Shown here piece by piece: positions 14,844 to 15,645 of a DNA stretch of 64,000 nucleotides. Each line of letters starts with the position of its first letter. Positions within the stretch are counted from its first letter, which is position 1. Source of the DNA: an uncultured Clostridia bacterium (GTDB taxonomy: Bacteria; Bacillota; Clostridia; TANB77; CAG-508); the NCBI GenBank assembly GCA_934120135.1, contig CAKOTK010000003.1, positions 83,691-147,690 of the forward strand. The letters are read 5' to 3'. The notes beneath the pieces are model-generated. The model did not search any database. It was not told the origin of the DNA and was given only the letters and a program-made list of their open reading frames with translations. The translations under genes and the position numbers were made by a program.

Positions 14844-15359
14844 CTACCTCTTATTCTTTTGATTATATTCTAAGCATTTCTCCTCTAGTAATTTAAAATT
14901 ACAACATCTATTTCTTACGTTTTCGCTCAATCTTTCATTATTATACATTTCATATAATTTAATTGATTTATTTTTTACTTGATAATAATGCGTATTTAGC
15001 CAATTTAATTGTTCTAATAATAATTTTTGATATTTAATTTTGTCTGTTTCTACATATTTTTTATTTAAGTCTACTAAAGTATAGTTAGCCCTTTTTACAG
15101 GAATCATATTATTAAAATTTATTGCTCCAAGCTCTCCATCTTTGATTTTTAAAAAGTCTATCGTATTTTTCATAGTTTTATGTTTTGGTTTCGGACTAGA
15201 TAGAGGAGCAAAATATTCATAGTTTTCTATACTGAATAAAATTCCAATAAATGGTCTTAACTCTTTCTCGTTCTTATTGTATGATACTCTTGTATCAAAT
15301 TTTCTCAAATAGTCACAATATTGTGTATTTACTCTAACTATTTTAAATCTTAAAATCAT
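14844..15359 (-). CDS. type III toxin-antitoxin toxin, ToxN/AbiQ-family endoribonuclease
   Basis: 171 aa aligns block by block to ToxN/AbiQ: [66 protein letters not shown] 7 nt upstream. Confidence 0.8.
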
Positions 15360-15395
15360 CTAGTTTCCTCCTGATATTTGAATTATATATTAAAA

Positions 15396-15445
15396 TAAAA
15401 TAAAAAACAAGATTAGGTGCTAAATAAAATTTACGCCCCTAATCT
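15396..15445 (-). terminator. intrinsic terminator between antitoxin repeats and toxin gene
   Basis: Minus strand AGATTAGG-ggcgtaaattttatttagca-CCTAATCT followed by TGTTTTTTATTTT; position matches the ToxI-ToxN internal terminator. Confidence 0.65.
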
Positions 15446-15446
15446 T

Positions 15447-15551
15447 CTTTTTTAAGTTCCCATTTATGGCTGGAATCACCGCTTTTTTAAGTTCCCATTT
15501 ATGGCTGGAATCACCGCTTTTTTAAGTTCCCATTTATGGCTGGAATCACCA
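15447..15551 (-). ncRNA. ToxI/AntiQ-like antitoxin RNA: 3 perfect tandem 35-nt direct repeats
   Basis: cttttttaagttcccatttatggctggaatcaccg x3 (15447-15481, 15482-15516, 15517-15551; only the last base differs), directly upstream of and co-oriented with the ToxN-like gene. Confidence 0.75.
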
Positions 15552-15616
15552 CTTTTTTTGCTATATAGCAATATTATTATATGTATCTTTTATAATAATA
15601 TTGCATTTATATATAA

Positions 15617-15645
15617 ATAATAGCATATTTTTTTCAAATTATCAA
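15617..15645 (-). promoter_or_regulatory. candidate promoter for the toxIN-like operon (TTGATA-17-TATTAT)
   Basis: Minus strand TTGATAatttgaaaaaaatatgcTATTAT about 65 nt upstream of first repeat; followed by perfect 14-bp palindrome TTGCTATATAGCAA (15558-15571). Confidence 0.45.

What the first reader, a model, noticed from the sequence alone, without database searches (positions are those of the whole stretch)
14844..15645. Complete ToxIN/AbiQ-like type III toxin-antitoxin (abortive-infection) module between ligA and pgsA
The window contains a 171-aa ORF with block-by-block similarity to ToxN/AbiQ endoribonucleases (FIGI…[22 protein letters not shown]). The ORF is preceded on the same strand by exactly three perfect head-to-tail 35-nt repeats (15447-15551). 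An intrinsic terminator (15396-15445) lies between the repeats and the toxin gene. There is an upstream TTGATA-17-TATTAT promoter and a perfect 14-bp palindrome TTGCTATATAGCAA near the predicted transcription start. From established knowledge of ToxIN and AbiQ/antiQ, this is the signature architecture of type III TA systems, in which ToxN processes the repeat transcript into pseudoknot units that inhibit it. Three 35-nt units would fit the trimeric ToxN:ToxI assembly. The module interrupts otherwise conserved housekeeping synteny, which suggests a single-module defence islet. This particular repeat sequence and toxin are likely undescribed.
Basis: partly seen in the sequence, partly recalled or inferred. 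Interest (0 to 1): 0.85.

Follow-up and report, generated by a model that had tools for sequence, protein, structure and literature searches.

The report
ToxIN RNA-antitoxin module beside ligA
This is a genuine, intact copy of a well-known kind of bacterial toxin/RNA-antitoxin (ToxIN, type III) module, sitting as an 829-bp insertion between two housekeeping genes of an uncultured gut Clostridia bacterium; it is a new member of a known family rather than a new kind of system.

Summary
ORF 14844-15359(-) is a full-length ToxN/AbiQ endoribonuclease: Pfam PF13958 E 8.6e-49; predicted fold matches ToxN and AbiQ crystal structures at TM 0.76-0.79. Upstream on the same strand lie 3.2 copies of a 35-nt repeat (one mismatch, at 15551), a strong terminator hairpin and a sigma-70-type promoter.

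Relatives at 61-76% identity turned up in more than 580 matched stretches of a species-representative genome collection, mostly uncultured gut Clostridia. Nearly all of the 80 loci read carry the same repeat (consensus AAAAAAGCGGUGAAUCCAGCCAUUAAAUUGGAACUU). Arrays have three units in 70 of 81 cases. A compensatory base pair supports a ToxI-type pseudoknot.

Strains with an identical PgsA protein have pgsA and ligA only 10 nt apart. This defines an exact 829-bp insertion with no mobility gene. The last toxN codon and its stop come from the old spacer. The cassette is far less diverged between strains than its flanks.

Verdict: a new member of a known kind, probably an abortive-infection or addiction module. 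The repeat RNA is not matched by Rfam's ToxI model and its sequence was not found in the literature searched. Toxicity, neutralisation and phage defence remain untested. Interest is moderate to low.

The parts
14850..15678 (-). 829-bp inserted cassette (promoter, leader, toxI array, terminator, toxN up to its penultimate codon)
   Evidence: Empty site in L094 and L096-L099 reads ...CAATGTAG|AGGTAGAGTTATG. The filled site reads ...CAATGTAG[829 bp]AGGTAGAATTATG. The breakpoint is ambiguous by 2 nt (AG). There is no target-site duplication and no mobility gene.
15617..15645 (-). Candidate promoter: -35 TTGATA (15640-15645), 17-nt spacer, TG-extended -10 TATTAT (15617-15622)
   Evidence: Consensus scan, 10 of 12 matches. 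The same boxes (TTGATT / TGnTATATT) are the conserved columns in a 50-locus alignment while the spacer varies. The transcription start has not been mapped.
15568..15604 (-). Leader hairpin 1: perfect 14-bp inverted repeat with a 9-nt loop, close to the predicted 5' end of the transcript
   Evidence: -13 kcal/mol, z = -3.45. An imperfect equivalent (GCAATAA..TTATTGC) is seen in relatives. Its 3' arm includes a very conserved CATATAATAWTATTGC motif that could instead be a second -10 box.
15558..15571 (-). Leader hairpin 2, the palindrome TTGCTATATAGCAA, immediately 5' of the first repeat; it overlaps hairpin 1 by 4 nt
   Evidence: RNAalifold on 27 leaders predicts only this hairpin. It has 4 pairs, 3 with a compensatory change in at least one sequence and none broken; the loop length varies.
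15447..15558 (-). toxI array: 3.2 copies of a 35-nt unit. Units in transcript order, in the register AAAAG(U/C)GGUG...CUUAA: 15556-15522, 15521-15487, 15486-15452
   Evidence: The homologous array is present in nearly all 80 related loci.
15393..15454 (-). Intrinsic terminator between toxI and toxN: hairpin 15401-15454 with a U-rich tail to about 15393
   Evidence: Fold of -20.4 kcal/mol, z = -4.9. A hairpin of -8 kcal/mol or better directly follows the array in 75 of 77 related arrays, and 57 of these have at least 5 T in the next 9 nt.
15367..15372 (-). Ribosome-binding site AGGAGG, 7 nt before the toxN ATG
   Evidence: Read directly from the sequence.
14844..15359 (-). toxN, a 171-aa ToxN/AbiQ-family endoribonuclease. 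The last codon AGG (14847-14849) and the stop TAG (14844-14846) lie in the pre-existing pgsA-ligA spacer
   Evidence: Pfam PF13958, E 8.6e-49, profile positions 2-159 of 159. PDB 4ATO at 1.6e-23. AlphaFold2 model pLDDT 89; Foldseek TM 0.76-0.79 to 4ATO, 7D8O, 2XD0 and 4GLK. Junction.
12842..14839 (-). ligA (NAD-dependent DNA ligase). Its ATG lies 4 nt after the toxN stop and its ribosome-binding site lies inside the toxN 3' end. It is a context gene, not part of the module
   Evidence: (Pfam hits on record).
15679..16290 (-). pgsA-like CDP-alcohol phosphatidyltransferase, a context gene. Its stop codon directly abuts the left end of the cassette

Best explanation
A functional ToxIN-family type III toxin-antitoxin module, acquired as a minimal 829-bp cassette.

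Shown here:
- a full-length ToxN-fold protein;
- an upstream same-strand array of three 35-nt units;
- a terminator between the array and the toxin gene;
- a promoter whose boxes are conserved in relatives;
- a repeat unit that fits the H-type ToxI pseudoknot template (stem 1 GGU/GCC, stem 2 UUCCA/UGGAA), with one clearly covarying pair.

Inferred from characterised ToxIN systems:
- The promoter transcribes the array. Most transcripts stop at the terminator, so the RNA exceeds toxN mRNA.
- ToxN cuts the precursor in the A6 tract between units (ToxN_Bt cuts A/AAAA). Each roughly 35-nt pseudoknot then bridges two ToxN molecules and blocks their active sites in a closed complex.
- When host transcription stops, for example on phage infection, the unstable RNA is depleted. 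Free ToxN then cleaves A-rich RNA and halts the cell.

Abortive infection is the likeliest benefit. Addiction or stabilisation of the locus is not exclusive of it.

A consequence specific to this locus, also inferred: ligA, formerly 10 nt behind pgsA, now lies behind the toxI terminator and 4 nt after toxN. It is therefore probably co-transcribed with toxN.
For: Protein:
- Pfam ToxN_toxin E 8.6e-49; PADLOC AbiQ 3.3e-37.
- PDB sequence hits to ToxN_Bt, ToxN_Pa, E. coli ToxN and AbiQ.
- The model matches these four structures and nothing else at E <= 0.001.
- The active-site motif T52-S53-P-K55 of ToxN_Pa aligns with S54-S55-P56-K57, and K33 with R35. S54, P56 and K57 are invariant and S55 and R35 nearly invariant in 35 clade members.

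RNA:
- 120 distinct units from 81 arrays align with an invariant GG...CC.
- Pair 13-31 is UA in 93, CG in 26 and UG in 1, and is never unpaired.
- A second compensatory change, UCCG/CGGA, occurs in L066.
- The same template GGUG-N3-stem-N-(A/G)CC is seen in ToxI of a B. thuringiensis plasmid and of P. atrosepticum. C. botulinum has AGU/ACU in stem 1.
- This fits the loop pattern described in PMC3401426.

Architecture:
- The terminator hairpin is conserved in 75 of 77 arrays.
- The promoter boxes are conserved.

Selection and mobility:
- The exact ToxN protein is recorded in 67 blocks of the assembly collection.
- Between strains the cassette is 99.6-100% identical where pgsA is 95-98% identical. 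For L002 that is 2 differences in 735 nt against 28 in 600, Fisher p = 3e-8.

Mechanism literature: PMC5086642, PMC10853763.
Against: - There are no experimental data for this locus. Toxicity, processing, neutralisation and phage defence are all inferred by homology.
- Rfam's ToxI model does not match the repeat. That model is a 34-nt B. thuringiensis-type model that also misses the C. botulinum, Fusobacterium and L050 arrays.
- A single unit folds no better than shuffled sequence. This is expected for a small protein-stabilised pseudoknot, but it gives no positive support.
- Stem 1 never varies within the clade, so it is supported only by comparison across families.
- Tyr29 of ToxN_Pa falls in an alignment gap and cannot be mapped.
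- No phage or phage-borne mimic of this repeat was found, so nothing ties the module to a particular phage.
Confidence: 0.85

Rival explanations
1. Mainly a selfish or addictive cassette. The module persists and spreads because losing it kills or slows the cell, and because it has placed itself in the transcription path of essential ligA, with little or no phage-defence benefit.
For: - No defence island surrounds it. Relatives sit as solo modules between unrelated housekeeping genes such as SecA, RpsB, RecG and dCMP deaminase.
- The cassette is much less diverged than its flanks, so it spread recently across diverged strains.
- toxN is fused to the ribosome-binding site of the downstream host gene here, and the same appears in L023 and L034.
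- ToxIN_Bt is reported to promote plasmid retention during sporulation (PMC4615649, title and abstract).
Against: - About two thirds of the contigs read that carry an identical PgsA lack the cassette (16 of 24). It is therefore dispensable and not fixed.
- A recent sweep fits positive selection for defence equally well.
- Characterised ToxIN systems from P. atrosepticum and E. coli do defend against phage (PMC5086642, PMC10853763).
Confidence: 0.25
2. An inactive relic: a decaying toxIN copy whose toxin or RNA no longer works.
For: - The natural 3' end of toxN was replaced by host spacer sequence.
- All three units in the window carry a U-to-G change that removes the closing A-U pair of stem 2.
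- Some assemblies show only 1.2 units.
Against: - The ORF is intact and full length against the Pfam profile.
- Catalytic-motif residues are kept.
- The identical protein occurs in many samples.
- C-terminal tails after ...EYN vary freely across the clade.
- The G allele keeps a 5-bp stem by shifting the register one base, with an MFE of -4.5 against -3.5 kcal/mol for the U allele.
- The same ToxN protein occurs with both alleles.
Confidence: 0.03
3. The repeats and hairpins are a cis-regulatory leader (attenuator or operator array) for toxN-ligA expression, not a trans-acting antitoxin.
For: The leader holds two overlapping, mutually exclusive hairpins and a very conserved 18-nt motif. The terminator lies directly upstream of toxN and ligA.
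Against: - The same array accompanies toxN in about 80 species whatever the downstream gene is.
- The unit fits the ToxI pseudoknot template with covariation.
- In all characterised relatives the repeats are the antitoxin (PMC3401426, PMC5086642).
Confidence: 0.03

Closest known systems
ToxIN_Bt of Bacillus thuringiensis plasmid pAW63 (PDB 4ATO; Rfam RF02519)
   Same: - Best solved-structure match: E 1.6e-23, TM 0.78.
- Firmicute host and about three repeats (34 nt x 2.9).
- Repeat units are joined by an A-tract that matches the A/AAAA cleavage site.
- Same GGUG...stem...CC pseudoknot template, seen in L091.
- A terminator lies between the array and the toxin gene.
   Different: - Only about 30-35% protein identity.
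- The repeat sequence differs enough that the Rfam model scores nothing here.
- ToxIN_Bt is plasmid-borne, whereas this one is a chromosomal solo cassette.
ToxIN_Pa of Pectobacterium atrosepticum pECA1039 (PDB 2XD0/2XDD)
   Same: Same protein family and fold: E 2.8e-17, TM 0.76. The unit begins with the same GGUGAUU motif (window GGUGAUUCCAGCC against AGGUGAUUUGCUACC). The TS-P-K active-site motif is kept as SS-P-K.
   Different: Its array is 36 nt x 5.5, its cleavage site is AA/AU, and it lies on a Gram-negative plasmid. Protein identity is about 26%.
AbiQ/antiQ of Lactococcus lactis (PDB 4GLK)
   Same: The PADLOC AbiQ model hits at 3.3e-37. AbiQ has 35-nt repeats x 2.8. It has Ser at the first catalytic position (AbiQ Ser51), as in the window's S54 (PMC5086642).
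   Different: This is the weakest of the four solved relatives by sequence (E 1.4e-9). antiQ is described in the literature as differing in sequence and organisation from ToxI; that was not compared here.
toxIN loci of a Fusobacterium polymorphum plasmid, C. botulinum plasmid p1 and phage D-1873
   Same: These are the closest relatives in the curated plasmid and phage collections, at 44-45% identity. Their arrays are 37-39 nt x 3.2-3.4 and use the same template.
   Different: They lie on mobile replicons, and their repeat sequences differ. The window belongs to a separate clade (61-76% identity to the window's ToxN) seen in the genome collection mostly as uncultured gut Clostridia and Bacilli MAGs.

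Membership tests
ToxIN family (type III TA; ToxN/AbiQ toxin + ToxI RNA) | The toxin matches the ToxN_toxin profile (PF13958) over its full length | tested here: met
   E 8.6e-49, 166 bits against a cut-off of 25; residues 6-165 match profile positions 2-159 of 159. PADLOC AbiQ 3.3e-37.
ToxIN family (type III TA; ToxN/AbiQ toxin + ToxI RNA) | ToxN fold: twisted beta core with the surrounding helices of solved ToxN and AbiQ | tested here: met
   AlphaFold2 model with pLDDT 89.4 and pTM 0.84. The only Foldseek hits at E <= 0.001 are 4ATO, 7D8O, 2XD0 and 4GLK, at TM 0.76-0.79. CptN and MazF score far lower.
ToxIN family (type III TA; ToxN/AbiQ toxin + ToxI RNA) | Active-site residues of ToxN_Pa (Tyr29, Lys33, Thr52, Ser53, Lys55) | tested here: inconclusive
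   T52/S53/K55 align with S54/S55/K57; Ser at the first position is as in AbiQ. K33 aligns with R35. Y29 lies in an alignment gap, with invariant Y27 as a candidate. Residue list from PMC5086642. No superposition at residue level was made.
ToxIN family (type III TA; ToxN/AbiQ toxin + ToxI RNA) | Tandem array of units of roughly 31-46 nt directly upstream of the toxin gene on the same strand | tested here: met
   35 nt x 3.2 at 15447-15558, ending 88 nt before the ATG. A homologous array is present in nearly all 80 related loci.
ToxIN family (type III TA; ToxN/AbiQ toxin + ToxI RNA) | Rho-independent terminator between the array and the toxin gene | tested here: met
   Hairpin of -20.4 kcal/mol, z = -4.9, with a U-tract. 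A hairpin follows the array in 75 of 77 relatives. Termination itself was not measured.
ToxIN family (type III TA; ToxN/AbiQ toxin + ToxI RNA) | The unit can form the ToxI H-type pseudoknot: two nested 3-5-bp stems, with loops of 3-4, 1-2 and a longer variable length | tested here: met
   Stem 1 is GGU/GCC, then a 2-3-nt loop, stem 2 UUCCA/UGGAA, a 0-1-nt loop and a 7-8-nt loop. 89% of cells are paired. Pair 13-31 covaries (UA 93, CG 26). Sliding the partners lowers pairing to 16-64%. The tertiary structure is not testable here.
ToxIN family (type III TA; ToxN/AbiQ toxin + ToxI RNA) | ToxN processes the precursor into units, the RNA neutralises the toxin, and the toxin alone is toxic | not testable with these tools
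   This needs expression, Northern blot or RNA sequencing. Only the conserved A6 tract between units is seen.
ToxIN family (type III TA; ToxN/AbiQ toxin + ToxI RNA) | Abortive-infection phenotype | not testable with these tools
   No host isolate and no phage is available. No phage-borne copy of the repeat was found.
Rfam ToxI (RF02519) | The repeat scores against the covariance model | tested here: not met
   No match even at E <= 10. The model is 34 nt long and hits the B. thuringiensis array at 59, 47 and 39 bits, but not L050, L092 or L093. It covers one sub-type only.
CptIN / TenpIN (the other type III families) | The toxin resembles CptN or TenpN rather than ToxN | tested here: not met
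   Only PF13958 was hit. CptN (4RMO) matches at TM 0.40, E 0.027.

The most novel reading that the evidence does not exclude
The 829-bp unit is one example of a nomadic, recombinase-free 'promoter-to-stop' toxIN cassette peculiar to gut Clostridia.

- It hops between intergenic sites of housekeeping operons. Its toxin reading frame ends in host sequence, and it captures transcription of the downstream, sometimes essential, gene (here ligA).
- It then sweeps through diverged strains by homologous recombination.
- Its conserved leader, with two overlapping hairpins and an 18-nt invariant motif, would be a previously unrecognised control element. It might set ToxI precursor stability or a second promoter.
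- The fixed three-unit array, with position-specific unit variants, would be functionally required.
Probability: 0.2. Interest if true: 0.5.

Novelty: new member of a known kind. Interest (0 to 1): 0.3.

Why it matters
The locus adds a well-defined, natural presence/absence polymorphism of a type III TA module in an abundant but uncultured gut lineage. The exact insertion junctions are known, and the cassette appears younger than the strains that carry it. This gives a clean case for studying how minimal defence or addiction modules spread without mobility genes, and what happens when one lands in front of an essential gene. It also defines a large ToxI RNA sub-family that Rfam's ToxI model does not match: the model missed both arrays of this clade that were scanned. 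Similar arrays were found in about 80 species-representative genomes. A covariance model built from the unit alignment here would let annotators find them. It does not change what is known about how ToxIN works.

Tried and rejected
- **Rfam scan of the locus.** It returned only chance snoRNA and miRNA hits. A control scan showed that the ToxI model is specific to the B. thuringiensis type.
- **Consensus terminator scan.** It found nothing, because the stem has bulges and a long loop. Folding resolved this.
- **Folding a single unit.** It is not more stable than shuffles and so is uninformative for a pseudoknot.
- **Search for phage-borne mimics of the repeat.** Two exact 16-mer scans of IMG/VR gave 32 and 22 single hits. 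None extends to a unit and none lies next to a toxN, so I judge them chance matches.
- **ToxN relatives in IMG/VR.** There are only four, at 36-45% identity.
- **Plasmid and phage collections.** All hits are below 45% identity.
- **Literature search for the repeat core.** No papers were found.
- **First automatic scoring of terminator U-tracts.** It was flawed, because it used the end of the whole fold. It was redone.
- **Long leader hairpin as a conserved RNA structure.** RNAalifold did not recover it; only the small hairpin came out.
- **An internal ligA promoter inside toxN.** Only weak or codon-driven matches were found (TATAAT from the Glu-Tyr-Asn codons). Promoter-like sites here are no more frequent than in shuffles, so no claim is made.
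- **Supplementary table of Blower et al. 2012,** wanted for comparing repeat sequences, is not held.
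Full report
**What is in the sequence**

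On the minus strand, between a pgsA-like gene (15679-16290) and ligA (12842-14839), the elements lie in this order:
- a sigma-70-type promoter match, TTGATA-17-TATTAT with a TG extension (15645-15617);
- a leader of about 55 nt that holds a perfect 14-bp inverted repeat (15568-15581 / 15591-15604), overlapped by the palindrome TTGCTATATAGCAA (15558-15571);
- 3.2 copies of a 35-nt repeat (15447-15558);
- a hairpin with a U-tract (15393-15454);
- an AGGAGG ribosome-binding site;
- a 171-aa ORF (14844-15359).

The three units are identical except for one base at 15551. The 25-nt core occurs three times in the window and nowhere else, against zero in shuffles. The hairpin folds at -20.4 kcal/mol (z = -4.9), although the simple terminator scan missed it.

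**The protein**

The ORF matches Pfam ToxN_toxin (PF13958) end to end at E 8.6e-49. It also matches the PADLOC AbiQ model at 3.3e-37. By sequence it finds the four solved family members:
- ToxN of B. thuringiensis, 4ATO, 1.6e-23;
- ToxN of P. atrosepticum, 2XD0, 2.8e-17;
- E. coli ToxN, 7D8O, 8.4e-17;
- AbiQ, 4GLK, 1.4e-9.

An AlphaFold2 model (pLDDT 89, pTM 0.84) has exactly these four as its only Foldseek hits at E <= 0.001, with TM 0.76-0.79. CptN and MazF come far behind.

The ToxN_Pa active-site residues are listed in PMC5086642. Of these, T52/S53/K55 align with S54/S55/K57 and K33 aligns with R35. S54, P56 and K57 are invariant and S55 and R35 nearly invariant in 35 clade members. Tyr29 falls in an alignment gap and could not be mapped.

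**The RNA**

The 80 best (61-76% identity, plus one conspecific at 99%) are nearly all MAGs of uncultured gut Clostridia, Clostridium sp. or Bacilli.

Upstream of toxN, almost every locus has a 34-37-nt tandem repeat. The consensus is AAAAAAGCGGTGAATCCAGCCATTAAATTGGAACTT. Arrays have exactly three cores in 70 of 81 cases. Copies at the same position in different species are slightly more alike than copies at different positions.

I aligned 120 distinct units (A2) and tested an H-type pseudoknot. Stem 1 is GGU/GCC (columns 7-9 with 17-19). Stem 2 is UUCCA/UGGAA (columns 12-16 with 28-32).
- 89% of cells pair, against 16-64% when partners are slid.
- Stem 1 is invariant apart from U-G to U-A or C-G.
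- Pair 13-31 is UA in 93 units, CG in 26 and UG in 1, and is never broken.
- One unit, in L066, has UCCG/CGGA, a second compensatory change.
- Two loci (L081, L085) carry 59-nt units with a 24-nt insertion exactly in the long loop. Blower et al. noted about 60-nt ToxI units of this kind.

The arrangement of stems and loops is the one Blower et al. described for ToxI (PMC3401426). The 5' half, GGUGAUUCCAGCC, resembles two known ToxI sequences. ToxI of P. atrosepticum reads AGGUGAUUUGCUACC (primer sequence in PMC5772629). The array of a B. thuringiensis plasmid reads GGUGUAGCCUUACC (L091). C. botulinum has AGU/ACU in stem 1, which is compensatory across families.

Units are joined by a conserved A6 tract. 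[quoted passage not shown]

Rfam's ToxI model (RF02519) does not match the window. A control showed that this 34-nt model hits only the B. thuringiensis-type array. The miss therefore shows a gap in the library; it is not evidence against the RNA.

**Architecture in relatives**

A hairpin of -8 kcal/mol or better follows the array directly in 75 of 77 arrays, and 57 of them have a T-rich tail. The two misses are coordinate artefacts of the 59-nt arrays.

In a 50-locus alignment of the upstream region, the conserved columns are:
- the -35 box (TTGATT) and the TG-extended -10 box (TATATT), with a variable spacer;
- part of the leader, including an 18-nt stretch CATATAATATTATTGCTA that is at least 90% conserved;
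- a small hairpin just before the first unit.

RNAalifold recovers only that small hairpin. It has 4 pairs, 3 with compensatory changes and none broken. Whether the conserved CATATAAT is a hairpin arm or a second -10 box cannot be decided without mapping the transcription start.

**Insertion and population picture**

The exact ToxN protein is recorded in 67 blocks of the assembly collection, always between pgsA and ligA.

I looked up the exact PgsA protein. Of the 24 contigs read, 16 have ligA starting 10 nt after pgsA and 8 carry the module.
- Empty site: ...CAATGTAG|AGGTAGAGTTATG.
- Filled site...CAATGTAG[829 bp]AGGTAGAATTATG.

The insert (14850-15678) runs from about 30 nt upstream of the -35 box to the penultimate toxN codon. 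The last codon (AGG) and the stop (TAG) of toxN are old spacer sequence, which also holds the ligA ribosome-binding site. There is no target duplication beyond 2 nt of microhomology and no mobility gene. A more distant species (L050) also has pgsA directly followed by ligA, so adjacency is ancestral. In L050 a toxIN cassette sits one gene upstream, between an AddA-like helicase-nuclease gene and pgsA.

Filled strains range from 93 to 100% flank identity to the window, and empty strains are at 94-95%. Between filled strains, however, the cassette is 99.6-100% identical, while pgsA is 95-98% and ligA 97-98% identical. For L002 that is 2 differences in 735 nt against 28 in 600, Fisher p = 3e-8. 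The cassette is therefore younger than the strain divergence and has most likely spread by homologous recombination through its flanks.

In other species the cassette lies between unrelated housekeeping genes: SecA, ribosomal protein S2, RecG, dCMP deaminase, an S41 peptidase and others. In L023 and L034 the toxN reading frame again runs into the ribosome-binding site of the next gene. Five loci have a tyrosine recombinase just upstream. Cassette GC is 24% against 29% for the window.

**How it most likely works**

The anatomy is shown; the rest is inferred from characterised ToxIN systems (PMC5086642; PMC3401426; PMC10853763).
1. The promoter transcribes the array, and the terminator lets only a fraction of transcripts reach toxN.
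2. ToxN cuts the precursor in the A-tracts.
3. Each pseudoknot bridges two ToxN molecules and covers their active sites in a closed complex.
4. When transcription of the locus stops, as on phage infection, the unstable RNA is depleted. ToxN then cleaves A-rich transcripts, which aborts the infection.

A feature specific to this locus is also inferred. ligA has lost its direct link to pgsA and now lies behind the toxI terminator, 4 nt after toxN. Expression of this gene (NAD-dependent ligase is typically essential in bacteria) is therefore probably tied to read-through that also produces toxN mRNA.

Three units are not required by the 3:3 complex. ToxI_Pa has 5.5 repeats and forms the same complex. 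Still, three units is the rule in this clade.

The window's units all read AAAUGGGAAC, where most conspecific strains read AAAUUGGAAC. The change removes the closing A-U pair of stem 2 in the clade register, but a one-base shift restores a 5-bp stem. The identical ToxN protein occurs with both alleles, so the change looks tolerated. That all copies carry it indicates homogenisation of the array.

Two assemblies show only 1.2 units, one of each allele, and two others have N-gaps inside the array. This looks like assembly trouble with perfect repeats, but real contraction is not excluded.

**Verdict**

This is a real and apparently intact ToxIN-family type III toxin-antitoxin module. It is a new member of a known kind. 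The added value is threefold: the exact insertion and sweep picture, the link to ligA, and the definition of a large gut-Clostridia ToxI sub-family that Rfam's ToxI model does not match. Function (toxicity, neutralisation, phage defence) remains untested.

Noticed in passing
window 15558-15612 (-); leaders of L012-L076: The leader between promoter and array is conserved across species. It holds a long hairpin (perfect 14 bp here), an 18-nt motif CATATAATAWTATTGCTA conserved at 90% or more, and a small hairpin with compensatory changes just 5' of unit 1. The two hairpins overlap by 4 nt, so they exclude each other. The motif could instead be a second -10 box.
   Followed up: partly
window 15452-15556; L001-L011, L095, L100: All three units of the window (and the single unit in L001/L095) read AAAUGGGAAC, where the other conspecific contigs read AAAUUGGAAC in every unit. 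So there are two alleles, each homogenised across the array, both paired with the same ToxN protein.
   Followed up: partly
L001/L095 and L100 (array region); L005, L006: Two independent assemblies show only 1.2 repeat units, with flanks 98.6-100% identical to the window. Two others have runs of N inside the array. This may be assembly collapse of perfect repeats or real copy-number change; it was not resolved.
   Followed up: partly
window 14850-15678 versus flanks; L002-L006: Between strains the cassette is 99.6-100% identical, while the adjacent pgsA is 95-98% and ligA 97-98% identical. This suggests a recent spread of the cassette across diverged strains.
   Followed up: yes
L081 about 75-381; L085 about 2690-2930: These arrays have 59-nt units that carry a 24-nt insertion in the long pseudoknot loop. 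In L085 the three 59-nt units are flanked by two 34-nt units of a different sub-type, giving a mixed array.
   Followed up: no
L013 4301-5002: A second, different toxIN module lies about 1 kb downstream of the first, with an HTH gene between them. Its array is 37 nt x 2.8 with an unrelated repeat, and its ToxN paralogue is 39% identical.
   Followed up: partly
L050 2700-4230: In a more distant species (PgsA and LigA 66% identical) a cassette of the same clade sits one intergenic region away, between an AddA-like helicase-nuclease gene and pgsA. pgsA and ligA remain adjacent there (30-nt gap).
   Followed up: yes
L023 and L034, 3' end of toxN; L013, L015, L017, L018, L025, L026, L032, L033, L045, L047, L049 just after the stop: After the conserved ...EYN, ToxN C-terminal tails vary. 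In L023 and L034 they run into the ribosome-binding site of the next gene (dCMP deaminase by Pfam in L034), as with ligA here. One sub-group shares a tail of about 22 nt, CAWCTMAGCGACAAMTTACA, after the stop; homology ends there.
   Followed up: no
L026, L033, L045, L047, L049, about 1895-2677: A tyrosine recombinase (about 27% identical to the window's XerD-like protein) lies immediately upstream of the cassette in five species. This is a possible link to an integrative element.
   Followed up: no
window 12583-12822 (-) and 12228-12515 (-): Two small ORFs lie downstream of ligA. The 79-aa ORF (12583-12822) has no Pfam match and is called in all conspecific contigs, as an 83-aa product in the empty-site lineage. 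The 95-aa ORF (12228-12515) was not searched against Pfam here; the roughly 90-aa gene called at that position in conspecific contigs has no Pfam hit on record.
   Followed up: no
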